64,000 nt of DNA from a virus (Duplodnaviria > Caudoviricetes), in IMG/VR virus record IMGVR_UViG_3300007770_000001. One strand, 5' to 3'. Of this stretch, positions 3,182 through 23,020 are shown one piece after another. Position 1 is the first letter of the stretch; each line of letters begins with the position of its first letter. The notes under the pieces are model-generated. The model saw nothing but the letters and a program-made list of their open reading frames with translations. It searched no databases and had not been told where the DNA came from. The translations under genes were made by a program, and so were the position numbers.

Positions 3182-3502
3182 GTGGAAAGGAAGGCCCTAC
3201 AGGATCGGGATGCGCGCGTGGGTTCCCATGTGTTCACCGCTCTTCAAGAGATAGAGTCTGCCATCCGCATCTCTCGCGACCACACCCAAACCCGACAAGC
3301 GCGGAAGGCGCACCGGGATCTTCTTCATATCCGGGACGGCCTGAAGAGAATCTCCTCCGCATCCCCCAACTGGTCCGATCCGGACACTATTCCTGAAGAG
3401 GAATGGTCTCGGAGGGCTCGGGAGAAAAGAGAGCAACGACGGAAAGAGCTCATGGAGAAGAAGCTGAAGCAGGCGACCCAGGCGGAGGCCTCTGATGAGT
3501 AA
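3182..3502 (+). CDS. Hypothetical helical protein
   Basis: GTG at 3182 after GAGGG; stop overlaps the portal start. Confidence 0.55.
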   Translation: MERKALQDRDARVGSHVFTALQEIESAIRISRDHTQTRQARKAHRDLLHIRDGLKRISSASPNWSDPDTIPEEEWSRRAREKREQRRKELMEKKLKQATQAEASDE

Positions 3503-5195
3503 AGACAAACAGGAGGGAGTCCCTGTAGGGAAGGTGAGTAGCGGCGACGGGAAGAAGCGCGCCAAGACAGGGAAGCCTCGGAAGATCATCGTCGGGAGCA
3601 TGCGTTCTCGGTACGCAGCAGTCGGATCCATGGCCAACACGGTCCAGGGATACGGGGGCAACTTCTACAGTCCTGAGCTCTCCACGGACTTCCTCGAGCT
3701 TCCCCAGAGCCTCCACGAGAAGTGGGCCTATTACCGGTTCTTCTATGAGAATGAGCCGTTCGTAGGGCAGGCGCTCAATCTTCATGTTGAGCTCCCCATC
3801 TCCAAGATCCGGATTGGGATCCCCAAGGCCAAGAACCGAGAGATCGCTCTGGCGGCCACCCGGTTCTGCACCAAGTGGGCCCGTCGGGTTCGTCTCGTAG
3901 AGCGCCTCATGTCGATGGTCCACGAGAGGAATCTGATCGGAGAGGCGTTCGTCTGGTTCGAGGATGAGAACCCCGAGATGCCTCAGGAGGTTCGCCATGA
4001 AGCGCGGAGGACCCTGACTACAGAAGGGGAGGCTGTAGAGGAATGGGTCCTCCGTGAGGATGCCGACCAGCGCGCTTCCAAGTGGCTCCGGAAGAACTAC
4101 AAGGGATGGACGGACGTCCGGTGTCTCCCTCCGGAGCAGATCCGCTTCGAGTCCTTCAACTTCACAAGCGAGATGCTGTTCGAGGTCATCCCGGATTCGA
4201 AGACCAAGCGCATCGTGGATCGCGCAAAGCAGGGAGATCCCCAGGCCCAGCGGGTCGTCAAGACGATGTCCGCCGATGTGGTCCGTGCCTGTGTAGAGGG
4301 GCGCAATGTCCCCCTGAACACCGACCCTGATGCTGGCTCCTTCATCTACTATCTGGCCAACAAGCGGTCGGACTACCAGGCGCGCGGGACTTCCATTCTC
4401 CAGCGCTGTATCCGTGCTCTTGTCTACCGGGACAAGCTCCGCCAAGCCCAGACCAGCATCGCCTCTCGCCATATGACCCCCATCCGGATTGTCTGGGGGG
4501 AAGACATGAGCGAGGGGGATGTCGAAGATCTGCGCGAACAGGTCGACATGGCGCTGATGGATCCGGACTACTCCATCATCACCAACTTCCAGGTCAACTG
4601 GGAAGAGATGGGGGCGGACCAGCGTCTGCTGGATCTCAACGGAGAATACGACCTCACCGATCGGCAGCTGTACGCAGGACTCTCGGTTACCGAGGGTCTT
4701 CTCTCGGGGGAGTCCTCCTACTCTGGGGACCGGGCCAACCTCGAGGTCATCAACACTCGGTACATGTTGCTCCGAGAGCAACTCCAAGCCTTCGTTGAGG
4801 ACTTCGTGTTCCGGCCGATGTGTGCTCGGATGGGGTTCATCGAGAAGGACGAAGATGGCGAGGATGTGGTGGTAGTTCCCTCCCTGACCTTCACTCGTCT
4901 GGCTCTCCGCGACAACCGCGACACCTTCGATGCTCTGTACAACCTGTACACCAAGGGCAGCTTGGACGTCGAGACCATCCTTGAGCTCCTGAACCTTGAT
5001 CCTGTCCTGGTCCGCGAGCGGATCGAACGGGATCTCTGGACTGTCAACGATCCGACCTTCAACGAGGTCCTGCGGGGCATCTACGGAGATGCGGGTCGTG
5101 AGCTCGTTGGATCTACGAACATCCTTGAGGTCTTGGCCAAGGCCCTCAAGCTCGAGTACAACCCGCCCTCTGATGACGGCGACGGCCGGTTCTGA
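3495..5195 (+). CDS. Portal protein
   Basis: 566 aa, largely helical, downstream of terL in the head module. Size and synteny are typical; no diagnostic motif is certain. Confidence 0.72.
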   Translation: MSKDKQEGVPVGKVSSGDGKKRAKTGKPRKIIVGSMRSRYAAVGSMANTVQGYGGNFYSPELSTDFLELPQSLHEKWAYYRFFYENEPFVGQALNLHVELPISKIRIGIPKAKNREIALAATRFCTKWARRVRLVERLMSMVHERNLIGEAFVWFEDENPEMPQEVRHEARRTLTTEGEAVEEWVLREDADQRASKWLRKNYKGWTDVRCLPPEQIRFESFNFTSEMLFEVIPDSKTKRIVDRAKQGDPQAQRVVKTMSADVVRACVEGRNVPLNTDPDAGSFIYYLANKRSDYQARGTSILQRCIRALVYRDKLRQAQTSIASRHMTPIRIVWGEDMSEGDVEDLREQVDMALMDPDYSIITNFQVNWEEMGADQRLLDLNGEYDLTDRQLYAGLSVTEGLLSGESSYSGDRANLEVINTRYMLLREQLQAFVEDFVFRPMCARMGFIEKDEDGEDVVVVPSLTFTRLALRDNRDTFDALYNLYTKGSLDVETILELLNLDPVLVRERIERDLWTVNDPTFNEVLRGIYGDAGRELVGSTNILEVLAKALKLEYNPPSDDGDGRF

Positions 5196-6795: not shown

Positions 6796-7250
6796 TGCCA
6801 CGCTTGCGCAAGATTCTCGCTTCTGAGGGGCTGGAGAGAGCCGCTTCTGATCTCCCCAGCGTGTCCTTGGTCAAATCTCAACTGAAGAGCGCTCTCACGG
6901 GGAAGCGTGTCGGGAAGTTCTACGACACGTTCGTAGTGGATGTGCAGGTGATCTCCGACTACGCTGTGGATGTGGTCATTGGCTTCCGGTGGCGGAACTC
7001 GGATCGGGTGGTAGACTCATCCACTGCCATTTTTGATCTTGTGTCTCCAATCAAGAAGCTGTTTCTCGACTTCGTGGCCTCTCACGACTGGGCAGAAGGG
7101 TTGGGTACTCAAACTTCTCGTGATGGTGTGTACGTCTCGACGCACCGAGATTCCAGAGCCCCCATCTCCCAACCTGAGTATGCTGTCCTGCGGGCTCGGA
7201 TCTTCACTCCTGTCGTCATGAGTCGGACCTTCCCGCATCTTCTCCGGTGA
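6795..7250 (+). CDS. Hypothetical protein
   Basis: TAATG coupling to the upstream gene; fills the gap to 7257. Confidence 0.55.
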   Translation: MPRLRKILASEGLERAASDLPSVSLVKSQLKSALTGKRVGKFYDTFVVDVQVISDYAVDVVIGFRWRNSDRVVDSSTAIFDLVSPIKKLFLDFVASHDWAEGLGTQTSRDGVYVSTHRDSRAPISQPEYAVLRARIFTPVVMSRTFPHLLR

Positions 7251-7256
7251 GCCTCT

Positions 7257-8492: not shown

Positions 8493-8529
8493 ATGAACTA
8501 TCCTCCAGGACCTGTCGCAAGGAGCCAAG

Positions 8530-9081
8530 ATGTCTGACCTGTGGGAAAACCTCCTCGCCGGGCACACCGCGTCCAATCATGAGACGACAGTGGATGCCCA
8601 CCTGTCTCGGTCTCAGCTCACCGCTGCGTCCCTGGTAGATCTCACGGAGCGGGGTCGGGCCTCCAATGCTCTCAAGCTCCCGGTCTCGGAGGGCACTCGA
8701 GTCGCCTTCAAGGGAACCTTGGGTGCAGTGCTCTCGATGACGGATCCTCCGGCACGAGGGGACACGGGAGAGGTGGTGGCGGTCCGCTCAGGGAAGACTT
8801 ACATCACCAGTCACGATGGCATGGTCTTCGTGAAGTGGTCCGATGGCAGGTTCCGGCCGACCCACGCTGAGTTCCTCATGATGGCTCCCCAGGGCCGCAC
8901 CGGCTCTCATCGGCTCCGGGTGGCATCCCTGGGCGACCTTTCCGGGTTCCTCAAGACCTCCAGTGGCCGGTTGGTCCAGAAGAGCACTCGAGACCTCTGG
9001 TCTATCCACAAAGATGGGGATGGCGGGGGCTTCGTGGTCGAGCGACTCTTCTCCGGCGATGGCAAGCCCCTCAAGGGATAG
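8530..9081 (+). CDS. Hypothetical protein
   Basis: GGAG RBS, CTAT element 32 nt upstream, phage-like codon usage. Confidence 0.65.
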   Translation: MSDLWENLLAGHTASNHETTVDAHLSRSQLTAASLVDLTERGRASNALKLPVSEGTRVAFKGTLGAVLSMTDPPARGDTGEVVAVRSGKTYITSHDGMVFVKWSDGRFRPTHAEFLMMAPQGRTGSHRLRVASLGDLSGFLKTSSGRLVQKSTRDLWSIHKDGDGGGFVVERLFSGDGKPLKG

Positions 9082-9093
9082 GGATAGAAGAAC

Positions 9094-9795
9094 ATGAAGC
9101 GCATCTCCAGAGAGCAGCTTCCAGGCCTCCTCCAGAAGGCTGCGTCGCTCCCCGCAGGGAACCCCGAACGCCGGGCCATCTTGGCTCGGATCATGCTCGG
9201 CGGTCCCATCGTGTTCCAACGCAAGGACATGCAGCGCATCCTCAAGATGCTTGACAAGTCCCGGGACGAGACGCATCTCCTGGCGTAGGCCCGCCAGATG
9301 GCTCGATCGATCAAGGACTGGAAGAAGGCCCAGCGTTGAGGTCTCGCGGCGGAGAATGAGAATCTCCATGGCGTCGCGAAGATCTTCTTCGACCGAGCAA
9401 AGGAACTCAACCCAGGGGAAGCGGAATCTCCGGTGGTCCCTCTTCGGAATACCCGATACCAGGAAGTACACGTCCTTCCGATGGGCGTCGTGGATCTCAA
9501 GACGGGCAACAACAAGGTCTTCAACTACGTCCGGGAGTGGGGTGGCGAGCCCTCTCAGATGACCGTCGCCGAGAACCTGGACAACAACCGTCGGGTCCTG
9601 ATCAACGGTTGGGGATCTCCTTCTGAGCTGTTGCCTCGGGGGACTCATTTCTTCATGTACCATGACCAGACCCGGAGGGAGATTGGAAGGTTCATCTCCG
9701 TCAGTGTGGTCACCGGGGATATGTCTCTCGATCTCCTGGCGCAGACTGCCCGGAAGGCAGGCAAGAACCGGATGTACGGGTACGTCCTCAAGTAG
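9094..9795 (+). pseudogene. Hypothetical gene interrupted by two in-frame stops (TAG 9286-9288, TGA 9337-9339)
   Basis: ORFs 9094..9288 and 9433..9795 share a frame, and the intervening sequence reads as protein: HLLA*ARQMARSIKDWKKAQR*GLAAENENLHGVAKIFFDRAKEL. Confidence 0.65.
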
Positions 9796-9803
9796 GAAGG
9801 ATC

Positions 9804-10136
9804 ATGGATCTCAAGAAGTTCCTCAAGAAGCACGTCGGTCGCAAACGGATCAAGACCAAGAATCTGCTGGGCAAGGACTACCACTCGGTCAAGGGGAACT
9901 TCTCCTATGAGCTGAAACGGGCCCTCGAGAAGGAGGGGTTCAAGGTGTTCGACTCCCACTTCAGCAGCTCGACCATCTACCGGATGACCGACGGTACGTT
10001 CCACATAGAGCTCTCGTACAGCCCCAGCAACCAGACCACCTCCATCGGCGAGTCCGGGTTGCTTCCTCCGCGGAACCGCGCGGCTCGTCTGAAGCTCATC
10101 CTGGCCTCTGAGGGCTTCGACCTCCCGAAGCGGTAG
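9804..10136 (+). CDS. Hypothetical protein
   Basis: AGGA RBS, normal codon usage. Confidence 0.65.
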   Translation: MDLKKFLKKHVGRKRIKTKNLLGKDYHSVKGNFSYELKRALEKEGFKVFDSHFSSSTIYRMTDGTFHIELSYSPSNQTTSIGESGLLPPRNRAARLKLILASEGFDLPKR

Positions 10137-10171
10137 ACCACCTATCAGGACGCAGATGGACAGGAGTCTCC

Positions 10172-10810
10172 ATGCGTCCTGACCCAAAGAAGGTTGCTGC
10201 TGCTTTCCTCGCGCAGAAGTCCGGTATGTCTCGGACGGCGGGTGAGGTTCGGTTCGTCAAGGATCGTGGGGGTGACAAGTCCGAGTGGGGTTGGAACACC
10301 CCCGGCCCGTCTGAGAGAGATATCTCGGACAACTTCGTGTTCAACGCGGAGAACCTGAAGCCGTTGGCTTTGGTGATGCGGTCGGTCCTGATGGGATTGG
10401 GCCACGCCACTTCGGCGCACACTCGGATGGTGAAGATCAAGAGCCGGAACGTTAGCCCTGATGGGGCTCTCGGAGGCAAGGGGTACATTCAGAAGATCCC
10501 GGACCTGCGGCGCCAGCTCATGAACTGTGTCGAGGTTCTCTCTGCGATTTCCGATACCCTGTACGATGAGATCAAGGCCCCTCACTGGGATCCCTCCGAG
10601 GACAAGATGACTCCACGGGACCGCGACGAGGTTCGTGAGATCGTAGAGGACGCTGAGGAGATCAAGGAAGATCCTGAGGCCTGGGCGGATGAGCAGGAAG
10701 AAGAGCTCGATGAGGAACACGACACCCTCGCTGTCCACAAGCAAGCAAGCCAGAAGGTGAGCTTGCACCGGGTGATCCGGAACTTCCAGAGGAGCACCGA
10801 TGTCGGATAG
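10172..10810 (+). CDS. Hypothetical protein with N-terminal PKKVAAAF motif (candidate head-internal protein)
   Basis: CAGGAG RBS, CTAT element 30 nt upstream; stop overlaps the next start. Confidence 0.7.
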   Translation: MRPDPKKVAAAFLAQKSGMSRTAGEVRFVKDRGGDKSEWGWNTPGPSERDISDNFVFNAENLKPLALVMRSVLMGLGHATSAHTRMVKIKSRNVSPDGALGGKGYIQKIPDLRRQLMNCVEVLSAISDTLYDEIKAPHWDPSEDKMTPRDRDEVREIVEDAEEIKEDPEAWADEQEEELDEEHDTLAVHKQASQKVSLHRVIRNFQRSTDVG

Positions 10811-13208
10811 CACGATCCACCAGCTGGGCAATGCGGAGCTCCCCGCTGACCTGTTCACGGAGACCCTGGCGAACGGCTTTGGGCTCGGTGAGTACCCTGA
10901 CATGCAATACGGAATGGGGTCTCAGTCAGCCGTTGTCCTGCAGGACGGCCCCACGACTGCACCTGCTGTTCCTGACGGTCTGGCGAAGGGGTCCGCAGAG
11001 GATCTCGATCTCCGTTCTCTGATCGCCGAGACCGTCCCCGATCTCGATTGGCTCGACGCCAGCCTCCTGGAGCAGGATCCCGCGCGCCTTCCGAAGAACC
11101 CAACGGACGTGATCCCGGAGCTCGTTGACGCTTGGAGCTCCGACGGCCCTTCTCTCACAGCACAGACTCGAGACCTTTCCCGCGTTCGGTACGAGGAATC
11201 TCTCAAGGAGGGCTCCGGGACTTCCCAGAAGGCTTCCGTCAAGCAGATGCGAGAAGTGGCTTCCAAGGCGATGCGTCGGTCTGTGATGGGTCACGATATC
11301 GCGACCATCATCCGCGAGGCTCAGGAGTGTATGGGGGAAGAGGCGGCCCGGTTGGAGCCTCTCCTCAAGATGGTCCTCGCTGAGCATGGCCTGGCGGGGA
11401 ATGTGTTCATTCGAGCTGCTGCCTATCCCAAGTACGGGTCGGGCCAGTGGGGAGCCCACCTCCGGAGATATGCACGGGACGCCCGGTATGTGGTGGTCTC
11501 TGAGCGGGATCTCAAGAACGCAACCTGGATCCAGAACGGTCGGTGCTCTCTCACCGGCAAGTTCGCCGTCACGAAGGTCCCCTGGGAAGAGGCAGTCACC
11601 CACTACAAGTCTCGGCTGGCTGGCCGCTCTCCTTCTCGCACTGGTCTGCGTTCTGCGTTCCTCCAGAGGGAGGGTCTCTCCAAGAAGGCCAACAGCTGGC
11701 TTCCACACCACACGGCTGCTGCTGATCGGGTCTCCACTGAGGAGGCGTGGAAGGCGTTCGCGTCGTACAAGCCCGAGGTTCCTCAGCTTCGGGATCCGAA
11801 GGCCGTGCGGCTGGCTTCGGACAAGCGGGCGGCAGAGGAGAAGATCAACTCCCTCGTCGCTCAGGGAGTTCTCCCTGAGGTGGACCGGGATCGTATCCTG
11901 GCCTCTGGCGCTTCTCCCTCTGACCAGTTGAAGGCGGCAGCTCAGATCGCTGCTCTCCCCAAGGTCTCTGCGTACCAGGGAGTGCAGAACAAGGCCAACG
12001 AGGTCAATCGAGATCTGTATCTGGCGCGGCTCGAGATGAGCCACCTGGCTGCTCAGGAGCGTGTCTCCCGCCTCCGTGTCGAGGCTTCGCGCCGCTCTCA
12101 GGCAGCCATTCAGGACCTGGTGGATCGAAAGATCCTCAAGGCCTCCGAAGCGAAGGCGATGCTGGAGTCCGGCAAGTCGGTCCACGCAATCCTCCGCGCA
12201 GCAGCCAAGATCTCCCTCATCCGACAGGGTGAGTTCAGCGGCCAGAACAACAACGCAGCTGAGGCGGGAGTCCAGAGGGTTGTCTCCGGAGCAGAGAAGA
12301 ACCAGGCTCGTATCCGCACTGCCCAGACCAACATCGACCGTCGTGTCCGGAGGGAAGCAGCGGAGAGTACCCTCGAGGCCCGCGCCGCCCAGGATCGCGT
12401 CACCCGGCTCAAGGCAGGGTATCGGGAGGTCCGCCGGGCGATCGAGGCTGGCGCCCGTGGTCAGGTCCTCAAGAACATCATCGCCAAGACGTTCCATGGG
12501 AACGATGCCGAGATTGGCCGTCGTATGCTCGCTGGCCTCCTGGAGCGCACAGGAGCCCTGAAGGAGCCCACCAAGGCCAACTATGAAGGGAAGTCCTTCA
12601 AGATCCATCAGGCAGAGGCTCGGAAGGCTCGGTTCTCTGGGACCGAAGCCCGGAAGGTCCTGTCTTGGCTCGGCCGGACCCTCTCTGAGGGCTTCGCAGG
12701 GAAGCCCTTGGATGAGCTCATCCAGCGTCGGTTCACTGCTCGGACACGGGAGGCTCTCAAGAGCGAGATCTTCGTAGCTCGGACCTCCCACGAGGGTGGT
12801 GCAGGGTTCGTCTATGTGGACGCCTCTGCGTATGCAACCCTCAAGGGGGTCAAGGGGTGCGAGACCGGGGCCCTCAAGCACCGGGCGAATCAGATCCCCT
12901 CCGTCCTGGAGATGAGCCGGTGCGCTTCTTGCTCCCTGGTCTCGACTCGGGAGAACGGCGAGCGGGTTTGCTCCCTGTACAACAAGGTCCTGCTCGCCGA
13001 CGCTCGGGGTCCCGAGATGGACCGCATCCGTTCGGCCAACGTCCAGGTAGCCAACATGAGCCGCGCGGAGCAGACCCAGTCTCTGTTCGCCGGTGTCTAC
13101 GATCCAGCGGAGTTCGATCTCCAGAACACCAATCTGGAGGGGATCTCTCCCGGGATGCCTGAGACGGACAAGTTGGCTGAGATCTTCTTCGAGACGCGAC
13201 TGCAGTGA
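10800..13208 (+). CDS. Large helical hypothetical protein (candidate head-internal protein)
   Basis: 802 aa, coupled to both neighbours; Cys pair C(A)SC near the C-terminus. Confidence 0.7.
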   Translation: MSDSTIHQLGNAELPADLFTETLANGFGLGEYPDMQYGMGSQSAVVLQDGPTTAPAVPDGLAKGSAEDLDLRSLIAETVPDLDWLDASLLEQDPARLPKNPTDVIPELVDAWSSDGPSLTAQTRDLSRVRYEESLKEGSGTSQKASVKQMREVASKAMRRSVMGHDIATIIREAQECMGEEAARLEPLLKMVLAEHGLAGNVFIRAAAYPKYGSGQWGAHLRRYARDARYVVVSERDLKNATWIQNGRCSLTGKFAVTKVPWEEAVTHYKSRLAGRSPSRTGLRSAFLQREGLSKKANSWLPHHTAAADRVSTEEAWKAFASYKPEVPQLRDPKAVRLASDKRAAEEKINSLVAQGVLPEVDRDRILASGASPSDQLKAAAQIAALPKVSAYQGVQNKANEVNRDLYLARLEMSHLAAQERVSRLRVEASRRSQAAIQDLVDRKILKASEAKAMLESGKSVHAILRAAAKISLIRQGEFSGQNNNAAEAGVQRVVSGAEKNQARIRTAQTNIDRRVRREAAESTLEARAAQDRVTRLKAGYREVRRAIEAGARGQVLKNIIAKTFHGNDAEIGRRMLAGLLERTGALKEPTKANYEGKSFKIHQAEARKARFSGTEARKVLSWLGRTLSEGFAGKPLDELIQRRFTARTREALKSEIFVARTSHEGGAGFVYVDASAYATLKGVKGCETGALKHRANQIPSVLEMSRCASCSLVSTRENGERVCSLYNKVLLADARGPEMDRIRSANVQVANMSRAEQTQSLFAGVYDPAEFDLQNTNLEGISPGMPETDKLAEIFFETRLQ

Positions 13209-16174
13209 AGCCGAACCCAGCCCGCGTGGCTGTGCGTTGGGCCGTATCCCAGCAGCAAGCAGCCCCGAAGCCCATGGCGCCCGTTGGGAAGCCAGGGGTT
13301 CATGTGGGTCTGTTCTTCCCCGTCCCCGAGGATATCGCTGATCAGTTCCCGGAGAAGGAGCAGGACAAGTCCAACCCCCACGTGACCTTCCTGTATGTGG
13401 GAGAGGTGGAAACCTCTCGGGAACAGGAGCTCGTAGAACTGGTCTCCGACTTCTTCCTGGAGCTGCCGGCTATCCGGGCCTCTCTGGGCCCTATGGACTA
13501 CTTCCTGACGCCAACCCAAAAGGTGGTGTTCAGCTCGGTCCGTTTCTCCCATGACATCTCGAGTATCCGAGACCAGATCCGGGAAGCTCTCCTGAAAGCG
13601 GGCTTCCGTGTCAAAGATGCCTCCCCTATCCGATGGCATCCCCACGTAACCATCGCGTATGTCAGCCCGGAGGAGAACCTCAAGCTGGCGCCGCCCAAGG
13701 GGTCCTGGGATATCGAGACTGTGCGGGTCTGGGGCTTCTCCAAGGAGCACACGATCCTGTTCGGAGGTGCGGGCCGCCGTCCTACCTTCAAGAGCATGTC
13801 CCATCGGGTCGCTGCCAAGTACAAGTCCAAGAAGGATGTCAAGGGTCCCGACGGCAAGACCCACACGATCTACGAGTACTCGGACCAGCACAACGCGAAC
13901 AAGGACAAGGACAAATCCAAGAGGGTCGAGAAGCTCCGCCAGAGCCTCTCGAAGCTCCGGAGCAAGTACCGTAAAGGGCTGTCAGCAGAGGACGCTCGAG
14001 AGCGTCTCACGGCCCTCGCCGTTGCTCTGGTAGACTGCACCTACGAGCGCGTCGGGAATGACGGCTCCGCCAAGGAAGGACACTTCGGTGTCACCGGCTG
14101 GCAGAAGAAGCATGTCACCATCTCTGGGAATACAGCCACCTTCAAGTACACCGGGAAGTCGGGGATCGACCACGAGAAAAAGGTCACCAACTCCAAGGTG
14201 GTCGGGGCTCTCAAGAAGGCACTCGAAGGGAAGAAGCCCGGGGACAAGATCCTTTGCGATGGCGATGAGTGTGTGATCTCAGCCACCCAGGTCAATCAGT
14301 ACCTGTCGGAGTTCGGAGTCACCGCCAAGGATATCCGAGGCCTCCACGCCAACGAGGAGATGAAGAAGAGTCTCTCGGCCATCCGCAAGAAGGGACCCAA
14401 GCTTCCCTCCGACAAGAAGGAGCGGGAGAAACTCCTCAAGGATGAGTTCAAGCAGGCCCTCGAGTCCGCAGCCGAGGCAGTCGGCCACACCACCTCCATT
14501 CTGCGCTCCAGCTATCTGGTTCCGGGTCTGGAGGACAAGTTCATGCAGGACGGAACGGTGATCAACAAGCTGAACAAGGCTGGCCGTACAAAGACGGCTG
14601 CCTTTGACATCCTGCGGCACTGCCCCCACTGTCTGGGGATTGTGTCTGACCTGGCCAAGTTCTGGGATACCTGTACGGACTGTGGCTACGAGGTCAATCT
14701 GGGAGGCTTCTATAATGGGCGTGGTGATGCTCCTCACGGAGGAAAGCCTGTCGAGAGGATGGCCCGCGAAGACGCGTGGCAGCCGATTCCTGAGACGGAT
14801 CCTCGCCTGATCAAGCAGGCCCTGGATACCTTCTCCCAGTACTCCCGAGGTCCAATGATGTGGATCGGGGAGGAAACACGCCTGGCCACACTTGAAGAGC
14901 TCGCCCAGTACCTGGAACGTGTCGGAGCTCCCATCCCTGCCGTTCCCCATACCAAGACTGCTGCGGGGAACCAAGAGGTCATCGAGGCTCCTCACAACTT
15001 CCATCGAGTCAAGGTAGAGCCCCCACGAGCCAAGCGGAAGGTGTACCCGTTCGAGGGCTACATCGACTTCCAGGGCATCCAGATCGATGTAGAGAACAAG
15101 AAGGGGTCCTCTCGCTCCGGGGCGGATCCCGACGGGAACAAGTGGTCTATCAAGATGCACGCCCACTACGGGGAGATCCGTGGGACCGAGGGCACCGACG
15201 GGGATAAGCTTGACGTCTACGTGGGGGAGAACCACGATTCCTCGGTGGTGGTCGTAGTTCACCAACAGGACCCCAGCACTGGCAAGTTCGACGAGGACAA
15301 GGTCCTGTTGGGATTCGACTCTCCTGAGGAGGCCATCGGTCTCTACAAGAAGCAGTACGACAAGCCAGGCTTCTTCAAGGAGGGCGAGTTCCTGACCATG
15401 CCCATTGGCCAGTTCTGGCGCTGGGTCAACGATCGGAAGAACAAGGGGAAGAAGGTGAAGGCTCGGTACTGGAGACCTCTCTCCGATGCTGTCGGGCTCA
15501 AGACTGCCAAGAAGGGCTCCTGGCAGGAGAGGTACTGGAAGACTGCCATTATCCACCTCTGGAACGCAACAGACGGAGAGGGTGATCTCCGGGGGAATCC
15601 CGGTCTTCAGTCGAGCCTGACTCTGTACGAGCGCGCGCTGATACAGGAGCTCTTGATTCATGAGCAGCCCATTCTCCGGACGGGCGAGCACTACCACGTC
15701 CGGGACCACCGACTGGATCCCGAGGCGGTTGGGGAGCTCATCGGCGCAGGATATCTCGAGGAACTGGAGGACGGTTCGGTTGTCGTTTCTCCGATGTACC
15801 ACGCCAAGGCACGCCTGTATGGTGGGGGTCTGACTCTGAAGGAGCAGATCATGGCCTACGAGCTCGGGTACGACCACACCAAGTCTGCTGCGCGTCACGG
15901 TCCTCCGACTCAGGTTGGTCTCTCCTCTGTTCTGAAGCGGAAAGGTCTGGAGCCGGTCGATATCTGGTTCGGACAGGTTCGTCCCCACCGCCGGCCGACG
16001 GTGACCAAGCTCGAGGCTCTGCGCACACGCGCCGGAGATATCGTCTACTTTGCCGGGATGGATGGCAAGGGCGAGCCTGTCGTTGGCCGCACTGAGCGGG
16101 AAGCAAAGGAGCTCGCCAACGAGATCGTTAAGCTCCGCCTTCGCCACCAAACCCCAACGATCCACAGCACCTGA
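13205..16174 (+). CDS. Polyvalent protein: 2H phosphoesterase + DNA topoisomerase IB catalytic core + phage polyvalent inorganic pyrophosphatase-like domain
   Basis: 2H motifs PHVTF and PHVTI. Topo IB pentad ERVGN (R), GKSG (K), KDIRG (R), GHT (H), RSSYL (Y). InPase-like IDVENKKGSSRSG...YGEIRGTEGTDGDKLDVYVG...FDEDKVLLGF. Confidence 0.82.
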   Translation: MKPNPARVAVRWAVSQQQAAPKPMAPVGKPGVHVGLFFPVPEDIADQFPEKEQDKSNPHVTFLYVGEVETSREQELVELVSDFFLELPAIRASLGPMDYFLTPTQKVVFSSVRFSHDISSIRDQIREALLKAGFRVKDASPIRWHPHVTIAYVSPEENLKLAPPKGSWDIETVRVWGFSKEHTILFGGAGRRPTFKSMSHRVAAKYKSKKDVKGPDGKTHTIYEYSDQHNANKDKDKSKRVEKLRQSLSKLRSKYRKGLSAEDARERLTALAVALVDCTYERVGNDGSAKEGHFGVTGWQKKHVTISGNTATFKYTGKSGIDHEKKVTNSKVVGALKKALEGKKPGDKILCDGDECVISATQVNQYLSEFGVTAKDIRGLHANEEMKKSLSAIRKKGPKLPSDKKEREKLLKDEFKQALESAAEAVGHTTSILRSSYLVPGLEDKFMQDGTVINKLNKAGRTKTAAFDILRHCPHCLGIVSDLAKFWDTCTDCGYEVNLGGFYNGRGDAPHGGKPVERMAREDAWQPIPETDPRLIKQALDTFSQYSRGPMMWIGEETRLATLEELAQYLERVGAPIPAVPHTKTAAGNQEVIEAPHNFHRVKVEPPRAKRKVYPFEGYIDFQGIQIDVENKKGSSRSGADPDGNKWSIKMHAHYGEIRGTEGTDGDKLDVYVGENHDSSVVVVVHQQDPSTGKFDEDKVLLGFDSPEEAIGLYKKQYDKPGFFKEGEFLTMPIGQFWRWVNDRKNKGKKVKARYWRPLSDAVGLKTAKKGSWQERYWKTAIIHLWNATDGEGDLRGNPGLQSSLTLYERALIQELLIHEQPILRTGEHYHVRDHRLDPEAVGELIGAGYLEELEDGSVVVSPMYHAKARLYGGGLTLKEQIMAYELGYDHTKSAARHGPPTQVGLSSVLKRKGLEPVDIWFGQVRPHRRPTVTKLEALRTRAGDIVYFAGMDGKGEPVVGRTEREAKELANEIVKLRLRHQTPTIHST

Positions 16175-18027
16175 TGATTGTCTCCCCCGAGCGTGTGGCC
16201 CGTCTGTTCTTGGCGACCAAGACACGTTCGGAGAAGGAAGAGGCTGAGGCGGAGCGGCTGATCAGGCCCTCTCCGAAGAAGAAGCCTCCTCGTCGGGATC
16301 TGGAACGAGGTCGGGTCAACGATAGCGAGGACGACCCGGACGAGAAGCAGGACAAGAAGGACCGGTCCCACAACTACAAGGACTCAAGCTTCGACCTGGT
16401 AGCTTGGTGGTTCAAGAACGCTCGGGACACCAGTACGGTCAGGATGCGCAAGGTGGATACCGGGCGCGTCGTCGACGTCTCTCCGGACACTGTCTCTGAG
16501 AACCCAGGCGCGTACGAGGAAGTCACTGGGGACGATGCAACAGATACGGACGACGCTGATCCTGATGCAACCGAGGACACCCCTTCCGACACTCCCAGTT
16601 CTGATCCAAAAGGGGATGCCCCTCCCAAGCCTGACCCCTCCTCTCTCCCAGGGCCTACGGACCTCCCGGACAAGGACGCGTACGAGAAGTTCCGCTCCGA
16701 TGCCATGGCTCGCTACACAGCCTTGGGGATAGCTGAAGACGAGGTTACTGAGATCTTGGACATGGTCTCGAACCAAGGGGACGCTGAGGAATCAGTGGTC
16801 CTGTTGGATGAGCTCGCGGATACGGCTGCTGCGGAAAAGGCGGACCGAGAGAAGGCCGAGAAGGCCGAGGCCGAAGCTCTCCAGAAGGAGCAGACCGAGG
16901 CTGAAGAGGCTCGGAAGAAGGAGGAGCGGGACAAGCTCACCAAGGATCTCACTCAGGGTCTGCCGAGGGACCAGGAGTCTGCTCTTGAGAGGTCCCTCGG
17001 GAAGCTCTCTCCCGAGCAGTTCCAGGCGTTCTCGGAAACTCTGCAGAACCGGGTGTCTGACCTCAACGCGAGTCGTCCGGACATCAAAGAGTTCATGGAG
17101 GACCTCTCCGCGCGGAAGAAGGATCTCCGGGAAAGCACTGACCCGGCCCGGTTGGGAGAAGCCCTCGCGGCCGTGACCTACTTCAACACGGTGGTAGACA
17201 ACCCTGCTGTGGATCTGGATAACCCTCTTCCGGAGAAGGGAGGGGACGAGCTGGAAGGGGATGCTCTGACTGAGGCCCGGAAGAAGTCGGTCGAGAGGTC
17301 CTCACGTGCAGTAGAGAAGTATCGTGCGATGTCCTCCGAAGATCGGAAACGTCACCTCAAGCGGCTGGACCAAGAGCTCCTGGATCTCCCAGACGGATCG
17401 CCCCGCCGAGTAGAGCTTGAGGCGATTGAGAAGGGGTTGGGAATCGCTGCTGTCCTCGAAGAGGGAGACTCGGTTCGAGGAGCCGGCTCTGCAGTAGCCG
17501 GAGTCATCCGTGCTGCCGATACAGCTGGGGATCTTGACAAGATCCTATCTCTCTCTGTGTTGGAGAGCACCGATGCCCTGGGTTCGGATGACCAGCATAT
17601 CATCCGTGGTGTCTACAACAACCTGGGCTCTATGGATTTCGTAGATGTGGTCGCCAAGGACCACCCCGCCCGTCCCCTCGCTGAACTCCTTGCGGACCCG
17701 GCGGGGAGCAAGAACATGTCCCGGGCGGACAGGGCGTTCATGAAAGAACTCCTGGTGGATGCCCTAGTCGCGGACACTGCCTTCCTGGATCCCCTCGTTT
17801 CAGGGGAGAGCGAAGGCCTCACGGTCAAGGAACACCGCAAGAAGTCTCTGAAGAAGCGGAAGAAGTTCACCCCATCGACCAAGATCCCAACGGACGTCAA
17901 GGGCGCTCGTGGTTGGTTCGAAGAGTTCCTCGAGAACCTCTCCGCACCGTTCCGAAAGAAGTCCTCCTCCCACATTCCTTGGGATTTCACCCCCTGGAAC
18001 CCCGAAACCATCACCTTCCAGACCTAA
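16174..18027 (+). CDS. Acidic helical hypothetical protein with N-terminal PERVARLF motif
   Basis: 617 aa, TGATG coupling to the polyvalent gene. Confidence 0.7.
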   Translation: MIVSPERVARLFLATKTRSEKEEAEAERLIRPSPKKKPPRRDLERGRVNDSEDDPDEKQDKKDRSHNYKDSSFDLVAWWFKNARDTSTVRMRKVDTGRVVDVSPDTVSENPGAYEEVTGDDATDTDDADPDATEDTPSDTPSSDPKGDAPPKPDPSSLPGPTDLPDKDAYEKFRSDAMARYTALGIAEDEVTEILDMVSNQGDAEESVVLLDELADTAAAEKADREKAEKAEAEALQKEQTEAEEARKKEERDKLTKDLTQGLPRDQESALERSLGKLSPEQFQAFSETLQNRVSDLNASRPDIKEFMEDLSARKKDLRESTDPARLGEALAAVTYFNTVVDNPAVDLDNPLPEKGGDELEGDALTEARKKSVERSSRAVEKYRAMSSEDRKRHLKRLDQELLDLPDGSPRRVELEAIEKGLGIAAVLEEGDSVRGAGSAVAGVIRAADTAGDLDKILSLSVLESTDALGSDDQHIIRGVYNNLGSMDFVDVVAKDHPARPLAELLADPAGSKNMSRADRAFMKELLVDALVADTAFLDPLVSGESEGLTVKEHRKKSLKKRKKFTPSTKIPTDVKGARGWFEEFLENLSAPFRKKSSSHIPWDFTPWNPETITFQT

Positions 18028-18126
18028 AACTACTCTGCTGTTCCCGATTCTTGCGGTACCAGTTTTATATGGCTTCCGCTAAAGGTGAGTCGGCTCAGCC
18101 GTCCCTATCTCTGTGGAGACTGTGAA

Positions 18127-19065: not shown

Positions 19066-19079
19066 GTCGATCTGATCGG

Positions 19080-20389: not shown

Positions 20390-20390
20390 A

Positions 20391-21848
20391 ATGGCTCACT
20401 CCAAGAAAGCATATGCGATGCTCACCCATCCCCGGATCACCGGGCGTGGTTGGGGCAAAATGCGTCGGAAGGCGACGTCCGGGGCTTCCTCGGCCAACCT
20501 GTCGGATCAGGCTCGTCTGATCCTCGGCGGGCCTCTGGATCCCGACAAGTACCTCTTCTCGCACTGCACCATCGTGGCGTCGGTGGATATCGATCCCGTC
20601 CCGGGTGTCCGTATGGGCACTGTCAAGGTAGGGAACTCGACCATTGACCGTCGCTATGGCGACTACTACATCAGGCCCACCAGTTCCCAGTATGTGAACA
20701 ACAACGGGGACTCTTGGTCTCGCCCAGTGCTGCTGGCCAGCTATCCGACCTTCGTCGGGGGCCACAACTTCCTCGAGCATGTCCAGGTTGCCTCCAAGTC
20801 CAAGGGCCGGATCATCGATGCGGTCGCTCGGGATGTTGGGGACTCGGTCTACATCGACATCCTGGTCGCGACCAATCGGAAGCATGCTTCCCTGATCTCG
20901 GACATCAAGTCCGGACGTCTCAACACCCTCTCGATGGGCTGTACCACCGACTTCACGATCTGCACCAAGTGCGGACACGTGGCGGTGGACGAGACCGACC
21001 TCTGCGACCACGTCAAGGTTGCCAAGCTCGACACCTTCCTCGACGAGCGGAACGAGCGTCGGATCATCGCCGAGCTCTGCGGCCACATCTCTCACAACGA
21101 GACGGGGGGTGTCAACTTCATCGAAGCCAGCTGGGTTGGGATCCCGGCTTTCACTGGCGCGGTGATGCGAAACATCCTGCAGATCGCCAACCTCGATGAG
21201 CGCGAGTCCGAGATTCGCCGGATCCTCGCCAGTCAAGGTCCCTCGTGGTCGGAGGCTGCCATGATGAAGGCAGCCAAGTTCGACCCCCAAAGGTTCCTGG
21301 TTGGACAAGGGGACGAGGACAACGAGGATCAAGAGCCAGAGCCAACCCCGGAGCCCGAGACCAAGGACACTCTCCAGAAGCTCGAAGATGACCTGGTTGA
21401 CCGAGTCAAGGACCGCGTGCAGGACCGCCTCCGCTCCGAGATGCGTTCCGATGAGGGTGACAAGACCCTTGGGGACTCCGACTGGCCCAATGACACTCTG
21501 AACAGGGAAGCCCGGACCCGGGTAGCCTCCAACACCCGCCGTCGCTACAAGATCGCGGTGGAAACGGCTCTCCGGCATGCGACCTCTCAGATCGCTCTCG
21601 TCGACTCGGTCGCTCGGATCAACATCGCCCACGATATCCGGATCCCCGTCTCCATCTATCGCGCCGCTCTCGAGGCTGGCTCCTCTTCTCGCTACGCTGG
21701 AACTCAGCAGTACGTGAATCGGATGCAGCACCTCCTGGGTCGCCGCATCAGTCCCGCCGAATTCCGGGTTGTTGTCCGGGTCGGCTCCCTGCTCTCCCAG
21801 TGGGAGCAATTCAACAACCCGCAGTCATCCTCCCCGAGGAGTTCCTAA
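20391..21848 (+). CDS. Prohead maturation protease
   Basis: NFLEH (His), IDILVA (Asp), LSMGC...CTKCGH (Ser plus Zn knuckle), FIEASWV; directly upstream of scaffold and capsid. Confidence 0.78.
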   Translation: MAHSKKAYAMLTHPRITGRGWGKMRRKATSGASSANLSDQARLILGGPLDPDKYLFSHCTIVASVDIDPVPGVRMGTVKVGNSTIDRRYGDYYIRPTSSQYVNNNGDSWSRPVLLASYPTFVGGHNFLEHVQVASKSKGRIIDAVARDVGDSVYIDILVATNRKHASLISDIKSGRLNTLSMGCTTDFTICTKCGHVAVDETDLCDHVKVAKLDTFLDERNERRIIAELCGHISHNETGGVNFIEASWVGIPAFTGAVMRNILQIANLDERESEIRRILASQGPSWSEAAMMKAAKFDPQRFLVGQGDEDNEDQEPEPTPEPETKDTLQKLEDDLVDRVKDRVQDRLRSEMRSDEGDKTLGDSDWPNDTLNREARTRVASNTRRRYKIAVETALRHATSQIALVDSVARINIAHDIRIPVSIYRAALEAGSSSRYAGTQQYVNRMQHLLGRRISPAEFRVVVRVGSLLSQWEQFNNPQSSSPRSS

Positions 21849-23020
21849 TGGCACGTCAGCGCCTCTCATGGATCGAGGAAGCTCGTCGAGCTTCCGCCCA
21901 CCCCGCAACCCCCGACGAGGGTCCGGCCTCTCCCGCAGGCAACGGTGAGGACCCCACCGCCGACGCCTACGAGAACGGCGACACCTCCTCGTGGGCCTCT
22001 GACCCGCACCCGCACCCCGGCCCCTACCCGGACAGCGCCCACCCCGCCACGCCCGACGAGGGCTCGGACCACCCGGCCGGCAAGTCCGCCTCCGACGAGA
22101 TCTCTCCCGAGACGAACCGTCGCGCCTCCCAGTGCGTCCGCATCGCGACCGCCATGCTCGGCGAGCCCGACAGCCCCGCCAAGGTCGCCGCCATCGAGGC
22201 GCAGGCCATCGAGCTGATGCACCTCCCCGACGCTTCCATCACCGCCAGCCTCAAGCGGCTCGGTCTGGACGGCGACGGTGAGGACGACACCGACAAGGAA
22301 GCCTCTTCCAAGATCTCCAAGAACACCGACCGGATCGCCCGGCTCGAGCGCGTTCTGATCCGCCTCGCCGACGACGACCTGGACGAGGAGGCCGCCACCA
22401 AGAAGGCTTCGGCTGAGCTGGAGACCCGCGTGGCGCGGCTCGAGCGCATCCTCGTCAAGCTGGCTGAGGAAGACGAGGATGACGACGGCGACCGGATCGC
22501 CCGGCTCGAGCGCGTTCTGATCCGCCTCGCCGAGGAGGAGGAGGAAGAGGACCCCGCCCCGAAGGCTGCCGCCACGGACAAGAAGGCCGACGACCTGCTC
22601 CTCGAGGAGATGCTCCGCGAAGAGGGGATGCTGGACAAGAAGGCCGACGACCTGCTCCTCGAGGAGATGCTCCGCGAAGAGGGGATGCTGGACGAGCCCT
22701 GCGGCATGGGTGAGCCCTCCATGGACGAGCCCTCCGGCGACACCGAGCTCGAGATCGATCTCGCTGAGGAGGATCCCATGACCATCCTCGCCGACGACGA
22801 CCTGGACGAGGAGGCCGCCACCGTGCTCGCCTCCCTGTACAGCGAGACCCCCGGCGCGAACCGCGAGGCCGCCACCGAGCCCGAGCGCCGGCCGCAGCCC
22901 AAGAAGGCGAGCACCGGTGCCTCCAGCCTCGGCAACGTCCGGACGGCGTCCAACGACTCCGACGTGGCTCAGCTCGAGAACCTGTGGAAGTCGGCTCCCG
23001 ACGTCTCCGCGCTCATCTGA
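21848..23020 (+). CDS. Capsid scaffolding protein
   Basis: TAATG coupling at 21846-21850; very acidic with coiled-coil repeats; amphipathic C-terminal tail DVAQLENLWKSAPDVSALI; lies between protease and capsid genes. Confidence 0.75.
   Translation: MARQRLSWIEEARRASAHPATPDEGPASPAGNGEDPTADAYENGDTSSWASDPHPHPGPYPDSAHPATPDEGSDHPAGKSASDEISPETNRRASQCVRIATAMLGEPDSPAKVAAIEAQAIELMHLPDASITASLKRLGLDGDGEDDTDKEASSKISKNTDRIARLERVLIRLADDDLDEEAATKKASAELETRVARLERILVKLAEEDEDDDGDRIARLERVLIRLAEEEEEEDPAPKAAATDKKADDLLLEEMLREEGMLDKKADDLLLEEMLREEGMLDEPCGMGEPSMDEPSGDTELEIDLAEEDPMTILADDDLDEEAATVLASLYSETPGANREAATEPERRPQPKKASTGASSLGNVRTASNDSDVAQLENLWKSAPDVSALI
22328..22533 (+). repeat. 44-bp direct repeat (DRIARLERVLIRLA) at 22328-22371 and 22490-22533
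   Basis: Identical nucleotide copies; a diverged third unit (TRVARLERILVKLA) lies between them. Confidence 0.85.
22576..22693 (+). repeat. 57-bp tandem duplication (DKKADDLLLEEMLREEGML x2)
   Basis: Identical units starting at 22576 and 22633. Confidence 0.9.

What the first reader, a model, noticed from the sequence alone, without database searches (positions are those of the whole stretch)
13205..16174. 2H/topoisomerase IB/pyrophosphatase-like polyprotein punctuated by K-x-A sites at domain borders
Seen: 2H phosphoesterase (about 13290-13765), topoisomerase IB with all five catalytic residues (about 13823-14580) and an InPase-like domain (about 15040-15450) in one ORF. KTAA at 14591 follows the topoisomerase; KTAA at 14954 precedes and KTAK at 15500 follows the InPase; KTAI is at 15539 and KSAA at 15881. 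Known: InPase-like domains occur in phage polyvalent proteins, 2H enzymes hydrolyse cyclic phosphodiesters, and some viral 2H proteins degrade immune nucleotide messengers. Inference: a head-packaged polyprotein cut by the prohead protease into separate first-strike enzymes, such as a relaxase for the entering genome and a possible anti-CBASS or RNA-repair 2H. Topoisomerase IB in a tailed phage is itself uncommon.
Basis: partly seen in the sequence, partly recalled or inferred. Interest (0 to 1): 0.75.

Follow-up and report, generated by a model that had tools for sequence, protein, structure and literature searches.

The report
Tagged multi-enzyme head cargo polyprotein
A huge uncultured phage encodes, among its head-assembly genes, one 989-residue protein that strings together a 2H phosphoesterase, an intact type IB DNA topoisomerase, a pyrophosphatase and three smaller modules. 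Every joint carries a short Lys/Arg-x-Ala tag that is most likely the cutting site of the phage's own head protease, though no cutting has been shown.

Summary
ORF 13205-16174 encodes 2H (two HxT motifs), TopoIB (R282, K318, R378, H428, Y437) and InPase domains.

[KR][VTS]A occurs seven times (aa 7, 201, 463, 584, 766, 779, 893), against 2.0 expected. All seven lie at the N-terminus or at module borders, in stretches that AlphaFold2 does not fold confidently.

- **Enrichment here:** the tag is three-fold enriched in head-internal proteins of this window (35 observed, 11.9 expected). Other proteins stay at expectation (11 against 10.9).
- **Replication:** two related phages show the same (40 against 13.4; 27 against 8.1).
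- **Protease:** the tag forms four conserved islands in variable linkers of 68 orthologues of the head protease.
- **Gene borders:** in relatives, gene boundaries fall at the same joints. There 2H sits in the upstream gene, and the downstream gene of this window is fused to TopoIB.

Best reading (about 0.55): a capsid-loaded polyprotein cut by the prohead protease into separate ejected enzymes. No cleavage, packaging or enzyme activity has been shown. This scan reached the same reading earlier on other huge-phage genomes. I found no paper describing the tag or a TopoIB polyvalent protein.

The parts
13205..16174 (+). 989-aa polyprotein ORF (P0001). The GTG start overlaps the stop of the upstream gene (GTGA). 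The TGA stop overlaps the ATG of the downstream gene (TGATG).
   Evidence: the same 989-aa product is called on ENA/Logan contigs of up to 339 kb
13223..13231 (+). N-terminal tag R7-V-A, in the context P-A-R-V-A-V-R-W. The same position-locked peptide occurs on ORFs 10172 and 16174.
   Evidence: pLDDT below 50 for aa 1-29
13295..13732 (+). 2H phosphoesterase module (aa 31-176), LigT/CPDase-like, with H59xT61 and H147xT149
   Evidence: Pfam PF13563, E 9.5e-13; TIGR02258, 35 bits, below cut-off; AF2 moderate confidence; Foldseek 5h7e and 1vdx, E about 1e-3
13805..13816 (+). Tag R201-V-A-A at the 2H/TopoIB joint. In relatives a gene boundary lies about 5 residues upstream of the equivalent RVAA.
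   Evidence: (aa 177-203 below pLDDT 50)
13814..14578 (+). Type IB topoisomerase module (aa 204-458) with pentad R282, K318, R378, H428, Y437
   Evidence: AF2 pLDDT 80-97; Foldseek variola TopIB 2h7g, E 2.6e-13, TM 0.64 by target
14591..14602 (+). Tag K463-T-A-A directly after the TopoIB fold
   Evidence: pLDDT below 50 from aa 459; the BLAST match of P0100 to the Zn-ribbon module starts exactly at aa 463, where P0100 has RTAA
14603..14953 (+). Zn-ribbon module (aa 467-583; CxxC...CxxC, then W-x-PIPE-x-DPRL), function unknown
   Evidence: weak Pfam XAF1_C hit; conserved in P0100; not confidently folded, with no alignment rows covering it
14954..14965 (+). Tag K584-T-A-A at the start of the InPase module
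   Evidence: (about 35 homologues start their conserved block here with [KR]-x-A-[KN]-[ST]-N)
14966..15490 (+). InPase (type I pyrophosphatase-like) module (aa 588-762), including a conserved N-terminal extension. D665, D667, D670, D696 and D698 are retained.
   Evidence: Pfam PF18823, E 5.8e-41; PDB 9b41 portal C-terminal domain, E 5e-16
15500..15550 (+). Double tag K766-T-A-K and K779-T-A-I, 13 residues apart, in a linker with a repeated RYW...KTA
   Evidence: pLDDT below 50 for aa 760-792
15548..15862 (+). TopoIB-associated 'NATDG' module (aa 782-886), winged-helix-like. In relatives it directly follows TopoIB and always starts [KR]-x-A-I-I.
   Evidence: AF2 pLDDT 81-94 for aa 800-869, the core of the fold; weak Foldseek hits to MarR/PhiH1-repressor-like proteins, E 0.17-0.36
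15881..15892 (+). Tag K893-S-A-A between the NATDG module and the C-terminal module
   Evidence: pLDDT below 50 for aa 887-904
15893..16171 (+). C-terminal alpha/beta module (aa 897-989), function unknown
   Evidence: AF2 pLDDT 77-82 for aa 940-979; only low-probability Foldseek rows to RNase III and Dicer, so no assignment
16174..18027 (+). Downstream gene (P0003, 617 aa). Over its whole length it is homologous to the C-terminal part of TopoIB polyproteins of other phages. It starts with the tag peptide P-E-R-V-A-R-L-F.
20391..21848 (+). Prohead protease (485 aa), carrying tags R26-K-A-T, K293-A-A-K, R372-E-A-R, R377-V-A-S and R395-H-A-T
   Evidence: phrog_18299, E 6e-13; Atlas structural neighbours in Peptidase_S78/S77; 316 relatives at E<=1e-30; tag islands
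21848..23020 (+). Scaffold-like acidic coiled-coil protein with 10 [KR]xA[AS] sites in 390 aa
23905..24777 (+). HK97-fold major capsid protein (no delta domain)
   Evidence: NCBIfam NF042927, E 1.9e-43
3495..5195 (+). Portal protein, which marks the upstream limit of the head-internal gene block
   Evidence: phrog_16240, E 5.7e-27

Best explanation
The ORF encodes a capsid-internal 'polyvalent' cargo precursor of a huge phage (contigs of 285-339 kb). It has six modules: LigT-like 2H phosphoesterase, type IB topoisomerase, Zn-ribbon module, InPase pyrophosphatase, a winged-helix-like TopoIB accessory module, and a small alpha/beta module. The modules are joined by unstructured linkers.

Each linker, and the N-terminus, carries the tag [KR]-x-A-[AS] or a close variant. 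The inferred mechanism has four steps:
1. The precursor is co-assembled into the prohead together with the neighbouring head-internal proteins.
2. The prohead serine protease (gene 20391-21848) cuts at the tags. The exact bond is unknown. By analogy with the x-A|S sites of herpesvirus assemblin (from my own knowledge), it may be after the Ala.
3. The protease also trims itself and shreds the scaffold at the same tags.
4. The freed enzymes stay in the head and enter the cell with the DNA.

SHOWN: the domains, their catalytic residues, the positions of the tags, the enrichment and conservation of the tags, and the gene context.

INFERRED: packaging, cleavage, ejection and every enzymatic role.
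For: - **Domains and active sites:**
- **Context:** the ORF lies between the portal (3495) and the protease, scaffold and capsid genes (20391-24777), in a co-oriented, translationally coupled block. Two related phages have the same layout.
- **Tag positions:** [KR][VTS]A occurs 7 times against 2.0 expected (p 0.004). None lies in a Pfam envelope, and all lie in pLDDT<50 stretches or at a domain edge. Matches to homologues start exactly at aa 463, 584 and 779.
- **Specific enrichment:** [KR]xA[AS] is 35 against 11.9 in head-internal ORFs (p 4e-8) and 11 against 10.9 in the other ORFs. Reversed and substituted control motifs stay near expectation. This is replicated in L006 (40 against 13.4) and L007 (27 against 8.1).
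- **Link to the protease:** in 68 orthologues drawn from clusters at 50% identity, four [KR]-x-A-[SA] islands persist within otherwise variable linkers. At query positions 293-296, for example, K/R is present in 65 of 69 and A in 63 of 69.
- **Scaffold:** it holds 10 sites in 390 aa, several at aligned positions in three phages.
- **Homologues:** the tags mark module joints in homologues whatever module follows. P0100 has one at every joint. 24 of 49 TopoIB homologues have one within 25 aa after the fold, against 8.4% background. InPase modules start and end with one.
- **Gene breaks at the tags:** 2H lies in the upstream gene in L006 and L007, whose TopoIB gene starts M-PSFS-RVAA. P0003 is fused to TopoIB elsewhere.
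- **Peptide-level selection:** codons at the tags differ synonymously, so these are not DNA repeats.
- **Precedent:** the SPN3US prohead protease cuts 9 head proteins and itself at one motif (PMC10052503). InPase and 2H are typical of virion-associated polyvalent proteins (PMC5512222). An InPase domain sits on a solved phage portal, 9b41.
Against: - There are no proteomic, transcript or biochemical data. Cleavage, packaging and ejection are all inferred.
- The tag carries little information (about 2 chance hits per 1000 aa), so no single site is certain.
- KTAK766, KTAI779 and RVAV7 lack the preferred A/S after the Ala. KDAS137 lies inside the 2H fold.
- P0003 (617 aa) has no [KR]xA[AS] site, and the L007 TopoIB polyprotein has none either, only KTAI, KVAT and RVAY.
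- Many tags are followed by an amphipathic pattern (A-x-R-Y-L), which would also suit a docking helix.
- Related phages are not independent samples, so the p-values are overstated.
- The Zn-ribbon and C-terminal modules had almost no alignment depth. Their low pLDDT partly reflects that.
Confidence: 0.55

Rival explanations
1. The protein is packaged or delivered intact, like phage P1 DarB or the N4 virion RNA polymerase. The [KR]-x-A tags, with the hydrophobic pattern that follows them, are then docking or capsid-targeting helices, or plain linker signatures, rather than cut sites.
For: Many tags continue as R-V-A-x-R-Y-L-like amphipathic segments. The same peptide is position-locked at residues 6-9 of three head genes, as a targeting signal would be. 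AF2 draws short helices at aa 5-15 and 199-205. Iyer et al. note that the N4 vRNAP is packaged unprocessed (PMC5512222).
Against: The invariant part is only [KR]-x-A-[AS]. The downstream helix pattern is absent at many conserved sites, such as KAAS and K-Q-A-S in the proteases, KSAS and KSAP in the scaffolds, and KTAAGNQ. Ten tags in a 390-aa scaffold, and four in the protease's own linkers, fit degradation and self-processing better than docking.
Confidence: 0.2
2. The tags have no function of their own. They are inherited ends of mobile domain cassettes, that is, joints kept by descent as modules are shuffled among related huge phages.
For: The modules clearly move. TopoIB and NATDG are contiguous in relatives, but here the Zn-ribbon and InPase modules separate them. 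The flanks KTA-AFDIL and KTA-IIHLW read like an insertion into ...TKTA-IISL... of P0014.
Against: Codons at the tags differ synonymously, and no DNA-level repeat is evident. The same tag is enriched in non-modular proteins (scaffold, protease, ORF 18127) and not in tail or other proteins. In 68 protease orthologues the tags are conserved while the flanking columns vary.
Confidence: 0.1
3. The protein is not virion cargo. It is a late cytoplasmic multi-enzyme, for example a TopoIB that relieves torsional stress during replication or packaging, which merely happens to be encoded in the head block.
For: No direct evidence of packaging exists. TopoIB genes of the cultured jumbo phages (phiRSL1, PhiXhv) are annotated simply as topoisomerase. 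I did not inspect their gene context.
Against: The gene is translationally coupled within the portal-to-protease block in three phages. InPase-bearing phage proteins are annotated as minor head, portal or structural proteins. It shares the N-terminal peptide and the tags with neighbouring head-internal proteins.
Confidence: 0.1

Closest known systems
Polyvalent proteins of phages and conjugative elements (Iyer, Burroughs, Anand, de Souza, Aravind 2017; PMC5512222)
   Same: Several unrelated enzyme domains sit in one polypeptide encoded among late or virion genes. InPase and 2H are listed there as domains specific to phage-type polyvalent proteins, with predicted delivery alongside the DNA.
   Different: That paper's proposed processing device, an embedded Zn-metallopeptidase (MPTase), is absent here. 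The joints instead carry the tag of the separate prohead protease. 'Topoisomerase' appears in that paper only in its reference list, so TopoIB is not among its domains. I found no mention of a type IB topoisomerase or of InPase in the 2021 jumbo-phage survey (PMC7824862).
Prohead-protease maturation of giant-phage head proteins (SPN3US gp245, phiKZ gp175, T4 gp21 with capsid-targeting propeptides)
   Same: One head protease cuts many internal head proteins, and itself, at a short consensus motif. The propeptides are thought to target proteins into the prohead, and the internal proteins are ejected (PMC10052503).
   Different: The known motifs end in Glu (T4 L/I-x-E and phiKZ/SPN3US A/S/G-x-E, from my own knowledge). 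Here the motif is [KR]-x-A-[AS]. Known cuts mostly remove N-terminal propeptides from single proteins. Here the tags would dissect a six-module polyprotein into separate enzymes. This protease belongs to a different, HK97/S78-like sequence family.
Poxvirus and bacterial type IB topoisomerases (variola/vaccinia TopIB, PDB 2h7f/2h7g/1a41; D. radiodurans TopIB 2f4q/3m4a)
   Same: Same fold and the complete R-K-R-H-Y catalytic pentad. Vaccinia TopIB is also carried in the virion core (my own knowledge, not tested here).
   Different: About 20-23% identity. Here it is one module of a polyprotein rather than a free-standing enzyme of about 310-350 aa. The N-terminal domain appears reduced (two strands plus a long helix in the model). 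In relatives it is normally followed by an accessory winged-helix-like 'NATDG' module.
Herpesvirus assemblin maturation sites ((V/L/I)-x-A|S; my own knowledge)
   Same: A capsid-maturation serine protease of the same broad fold class as phage prohead proteases, with small residues Ala and Ser around the scissile bond.
   Different: This is only an analogy for where the bond might lie. Here the position two residues before the Ala is basic (K/R), and no cleavage has been shown.

Membership tests
Type IB DNA topoisomerase (Pfam PF01028 catalytic core) | Catalytic pentad Arg-Lys-Arg-His/Asn-Tyr | tested here: met
   R282, K318, R378, H428 and Y437 align to R137, K174, R239, N280 and Y289 of 2f4q. 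They are invariant or nearly invariant in 53 homologues.
Type IB DNA topoisomerase (Pfam PF01028 catalytic core) | TopIB / tyrosine-recombinase-like catalytic fold | tested here: met
   The AF2 model has pLDDT 80-97 over aa 204-458. Foldseek finds variola TopIB 2h7g at E 2.6e-13 with TM 0.64 by target, and bacterial TopIB 3m4a at E 1e-12.
Type IB DNA topoisomerase (Pfam PF01028 catalytic core) | Relaxation of supercoiled DNA through a 3'-phosphotyrosyl intermediate | not testable with these tools
   This needs a plasmid relaxation assay with a Y437F control.
2H phosphoesterase superfamily (LigT/CPDase-like) | Two H-x-T/S motifs on a duplicated alpha+beta lobe | tested here: met
   H59-V-T61 and H147-V-T149. 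Pfam PF13563 scores 48.9 bits against a cut-off of 27. Foldseek finds drCPDase 5h7e at E 1.3e-3 and P. horikoshii LigT-like 1vdx at E 3.6e-3. The model has only moderate confidence, pLDDT 50-80.
Anti-CBASS / immune-nucleotide-degrading 2H enzymes (Acb1-like, viral 2'-5' or cGAMP phosphodiesterases) | Specific sequence or structural kinship with those enzymes, rather than with generic LigT | tested here: inconclusive
   Penguinpox cGAMP PDE 9bkq (E 4e-3) and the rotavirus VP3-type RNase L antagonist 4ye2 (E 5.5e-3) appear among the Foldseek hits, but below LigT/CPDase. The best sequence model is ThpR/LigT TIGR02258, below its cut-off. Substrate cannot be inferred.
InPase domain of phage polyvalent proteins (Pfam PF18823) | Full-length profile match and conserved metal-binding acidic residues | tested here: met
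   140 bits against a cut-off of 26.8, covering profile positions 11-134 of 135. E630, D665, D667, D670, D696 and D698 are conserved in at least 93% of 16 homologues.
Polyvalent proteins (Iyer et al. 2017) | Two or more unrelated effector domains in one polypeptide, in a late or virion gene context | tested here: met
   Three Pfam domains plus three further modules. The gene lies between the portal and the protease/capsid genes.
Polyvalent proteins (Iyer et al. 2017) | Embedded MPTase (Zn-metallopeptidase) for self-processing. This is frequent in the family but not obligatory. | tested here: not met
   No peptidase domain appears in Pfam, PHROGs or NCBIfam scans of P0001.
Substrates of a prohead maturation protease (T4 gp21 / SPN3US gp245 type) | A shared short motif that recurs in the protease itself, in the scaffold and in internal head proteins, but not in other virion proteins | tested here: met
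   [KR]xA[AS] is 35 against 11.9 in head-internal ORFs and 11 against 10.9 in others. It is replicated in L006 and L007. Four conserved islands occur in 68 protease orthologues.
Substrates of a prohead maturation protease (T4 gp21 / SPN3US gp245 type) | Demonstrated cleavage at the motif in proheads or in vitro | not testable with these tools
   This needs virion proteomics or a recombinant protease assay.

The most novel reading that the evidence does not exclude
A large lineage of huge phages (at least 316 protease clusters at 50% identity) uses one peptide code, [KR]-x-A-[AS], read by its prohead protease. Any enzyme module can then be added to the capsid cargo by placing it between two tags, whether as a separate gene or fused into a polyprotein. 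This would explain why gene boundaries drift freely between modules. It would also mean that these phages deliver an active type IB topoisomerase with their DNA, a bacterial-virus parallel to the poxvirus virion topoisomerase.
Probability: 0.45. Interest if true: 0.75.

Novelty: new variant of a known kind. Interest (0 to 1): 0.62.

Why it matters
If the tags are cut sites, these phages encode their injected enzyme kit as beads on a string, and the tag gives a simple rule for predicting the mature products.

- **Annotation:** the tag rule could be used to predict the mature capsid cargo of hundreds of uncultured huge phages from sequence alone.
- **Evolution:** it would explain why gene fusion and fission occur so freely in their head modules.
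- **Engineering:** the tags could serve as a handle for loading foreign proteins into capsids.
- **Biology:** it would add a type IB topoisomerase, rare in deposited phages (8 of 50,697 records), to the proteins that a phage may bring into the cell. What it does there is an open question: it could relax the incoming genome or act on the host chromosome.

If the tags are not cut, the protein is still a new TopoIB-bearing polyvalent protein, which is of moderate interest.

Tried and rejected
- **Complex prediction:** I tried the protease (aa 40-300) with the linker peptide aa 446-482. The result was 'no verdict' (score 0.02), which is not evidence either way.
- **Close relatives of the whole protein:** there is none in IMG/VR (one distant InPase locus) and none in GenBank phages (only part of the protein matches, never more than 27% of its length).
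- **Whole genome:** no genome is held for this window. An exact look-up of the 966-aa JGI version found nothing, but the 989-aa version did.
- **Alignments for folding:** MAFFT alignments of the full-length query with mixed domain fragments were misaligned, because the TopoIB rows were stacked on the InPase rows (A1, A3, A4, A6). I discarded them and folded aa 1-620 and aa 760-989 separately, so the InPase core itself was not modelled.
- **Zn-ribbon region (aa 458-600):** the homologue search returned only the protein itself.
- **C-terminal model:** the Foldseek search gave nothing below E 0.1. The winged-helix reading of aa 798-886 is weak, and the low-probability RNase III/Dicer rows give no assignment for the last module.
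- **K[TS]A as the whole motif:** rejected. KSA is not enriched in the homologues and K-x-A varies freely in x.
- **DNA-level repeats at the tags:** rejected.
- **Literature:** I found no paper on TopoIB in phage polyvalent proteins or on this protease motif.
Full report
**What the window is.**
The window belongs to a huge uncultured phage. The same 989-aa product is encoded on metagenome scaffolds of 285 and 339 kb, and no cellular genome is held for it. The + strand carries a head block:
- large terminase at 697-2640 and portal at 3495-5195;
- a run of co-oriented genes, most with no family match;
- a prohead protease at 20391-21848 (phrog_18299, E 6e-13; Atlas structural neighbours in Peptidase_S78/S77);
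- an acidic coiled-coil scaffold-like protein at 21848-23020;
- an HK97-fold capsid protein at 23905-24777 (NF042927, E 1.9e-43).

The finding's ORF (13205-16174) lies in the middle of this block. It is translationally coupled to both neighbours, through GTGA at its start and TGATG at its end.

**Check of the observation.**
- Pfam places 2H at aa 50-158, TopoIB at aa 231-432 and InPase at aa 617-741.
- The TopoIB pentad is R282, K318, R378, H428 and Y437, by alignment to D. radiodurans TopIB. It is invariant or nearly so in 53 homologues.
- An AlphaFold2 model of aa 1-620 folds aa 204-458 at pLDDT 80-97. Its best structural match is variola TopIB (E 2.6e-13).
- 2H has both HxT motifs. It is nearest to LigT/CPDase enzymes.
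- InPase keeps its acidic metal ligands.
- The five K-[TS]-A sites are at nt 14591, 14954, 15500, 15539 and 15881. That is five against 0.72 expected, and TK[TS]AA occurs three times against 0.003 expected.

**What the tags really are.**
Comparing 57 TopoIB-bearing relatives showed that the stretch just after the TopoIB fold nearly always carries K/R-x-A. It is often R-V-A followed by x-x-Y-L, and it does not depend on which module follows. KTA and RVA are interchangeable. The accessory 'NATDG' module begins KTA-II here, and RVA-II, KVA-II, KQA-II or KMA-II in eight relatives.

With the class [KR][VTS]A, the protein has exactly seven sites: aa 7, 201, 463, 584, 766, 779 and 893. Only 2.0 are expected (p 0.004).
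- None falls inside a Pfam envelope.
- All lie in stretches with pLDDT below 50 or at a domain edge.
- Matches to homologues begin exactly at aa 463, 584 and 779.

The 2H/TopoIB joint has RVAA (aa 201) and the N-terminus has RVA (aa 7).

The full module list is:
- 2H, aa 31-176;
- TopoIB, aa 204-458;
- a Zn-ribbon module, aa 467-583;
- InPase with a conserved N-terminal extension, aa 588-762;
- a winged-helix-like module, aa 782-886 (a weak fold match only);
- a small alpha/beta module, aa 897-989.

**Link to the head protease.**
The protease family is large, with 316 representatives at E<=1e-30. In an alignment of 68 orthologues of normal length, four short islands [KR]-x-A-[SA] stand out from variable linkers:
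- near residue 25;
- right after the catalytic domain (query positions 293-296: K/R in 65 of 69, Ala in 63 of 69, Ser or Ala in 42 of 69);
- near residue 373;
- near residue 396.

Known prohead proteases trim themselves at their own motif (SPN3US gp245, PMC10052503).

I then took [KR]-x-A-[AS], as defined from the proteases, and counted it in the window.
- Head-internal ORFs (6795-23020, without the homing endonuclease) hold 35 sites against 11.9 expected from composition (p 4e-8).
- All other ORFs hold 11 against 10.9.
- Reversed and substituted control motifs stay at expectation.
- The scaffold-like protein alone has 10 sites in 390 aa, several at aligned positions in three phages.

The enrichment recurs in two related phages fetched through homologues: L006 with 40 against 13.4, and L007 with 27 against 8.1. 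Codons at the tags differ synonymously, so selection acts on the peptide and not on a DNA repeat.

**Gene boundaries fall at the tags.**
- In L006 and L007 the 2H module ends the upstream gene, and the TopoIB gene starts M-PSFS-RVAA. That is the same peptide as aa 196-204 here.
- The downstream gene of this window (P0003) is homologous over its whole length to the C-terminal part of TopoIB polyproteins elsewhere. It starts with the same tag peptide.
- One relative, P0100, has a tag at every joint of TopoIB, NATDG, Zn-ribbon and the P0003-like part.
- Here the Zn-ribbon and InPase modules sit between TopoIB and its usual NATDG partner, flanked by KTA on both sides.

**Interpretation.**
The best-supported model is a capsid-loaded precursor that the prohead protease cuts at the tags into separate enzymes, which leave with the DNA. 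This joins two known themes: polyvalent proteins (PMC5512222) and giant-phage head maturation. It differs from both in three ways:
- there is no embedded metallopeptidase;
- the motif is basic-x-Ala-small rather than x-x-Glu;
- the cuts would separate whole enzymes rather than remove propeptides.

None of the steps (packaging, cutting, ejection, activity) has been observed, so I put the model at about 0.55.

The main rival, at 0.2, is that the protein stays whole and the tags are docking or targeting helices. In its favour, an amphipathic pattern follows many tags, and the peptide is position-locked at three N-termini.

Weak points of the cleavage model:
- the tag carries little information;
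- three of the seven sites lack the preferred residue after the Ala;
- one KDAS lies inside the 2H fold;
- P0003 and one relative's TopoIB protein have no canonical site.

**Functions.**
The substrates cannot be assigned. The 2H domain looks like a generic LigT/CPDase, and viral cGAMP or 2'-5'A phosphodiesterases rank lower among the fold matches. The anti-CBASS idea is therefore open. TopoIB has everything needed for catalysis, but whether it acts on phage or host DNA is unknown.

**Novelty.**
- TopoIB is rare in deposited phages: 8 of 50,697 records, all with genomes of 227 kb or more.
- It is common in metagenomic huge-phage polyproteins.
- The two Aravind-group surveys do not list TopoIB among polyvalent-protein domains.
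- I found no paper on this protease motif.
- Earlier notes of this scan reached the same reading on other huge-phage genomes. This is therefore a further, independently re-derived case rather than a first sighting.

Noticed in passing
window 10172-10230, 13205-13250, 16174-16230: Three head-block genes begin with the same position-locked peptide, M-x3-P-x-[KR]-V-A-x-x-[FW]-[LA]. Many polyprotein homologues in other phages also start M-x(2-8)-R-V-A-A-R-Y-L. It could be a capsid-targeting or propeptide signal that contains the first tag.
   Followed up: partly
window 19556-20389: A free-standing GIY-YIG/NUMOD3 homing-endonuclease gene sits between a head gene and the protease gene. It is absent at this place in the related phages L006 and L007. 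In strain variant L005 a different 254-aa ORF takes its place.
   Followed up: partly
proteins P0107, P0108, P0122, P0124, P0155 and others: Many orthologues of the prohead protease are 900-1850 aa long and match the query in 2-5 separate stretches. This suggests inteins or other large insertions inside the protease gene.
   Followed up: no
window 44495-45640: A 381-aa ORF combines a ROS/MucR-type zinc finger (E 7e-11) with a NUMOD3 motif. It may be a second homing-endonuclease-like or DNA-binding gene.
   Followed up: no
window 21848-23020: The scaffold-like protein holds internal repeats: R-[IV]-A-R-L-E-R three times, and D-D-L-L-L-E-E-M-L-R-E-E-G-M-L twice. It ends in L-W-K-S-A-P-D, which is invariant in three phages.
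   Followed up: partly
window 5239-6795: The 518-aa protein right after the portal has a weak pectinesterase (beta-helix) match (E 3e-6, just under the cut-off). It is conserved at the same place in related phages.
   Followed up: no
window 15470-15550 (aa 755-782): The InPase-to-NATDG linker is about 22 residues longer than in relative P0011. It contains RYW...KTA twice, as if the tag region had been duplicated in tandem.
   Followed up: partly
window 3495-5195 and 23905-24777: The portal (R-Y-A-A at aa 39; R-F-A-S in L007) and the capsid protein (K-L-A-A-S at aa 24, conserved in three phages) each carry one N-terminal tag. They too may be trimmed.
   Followed up: partly
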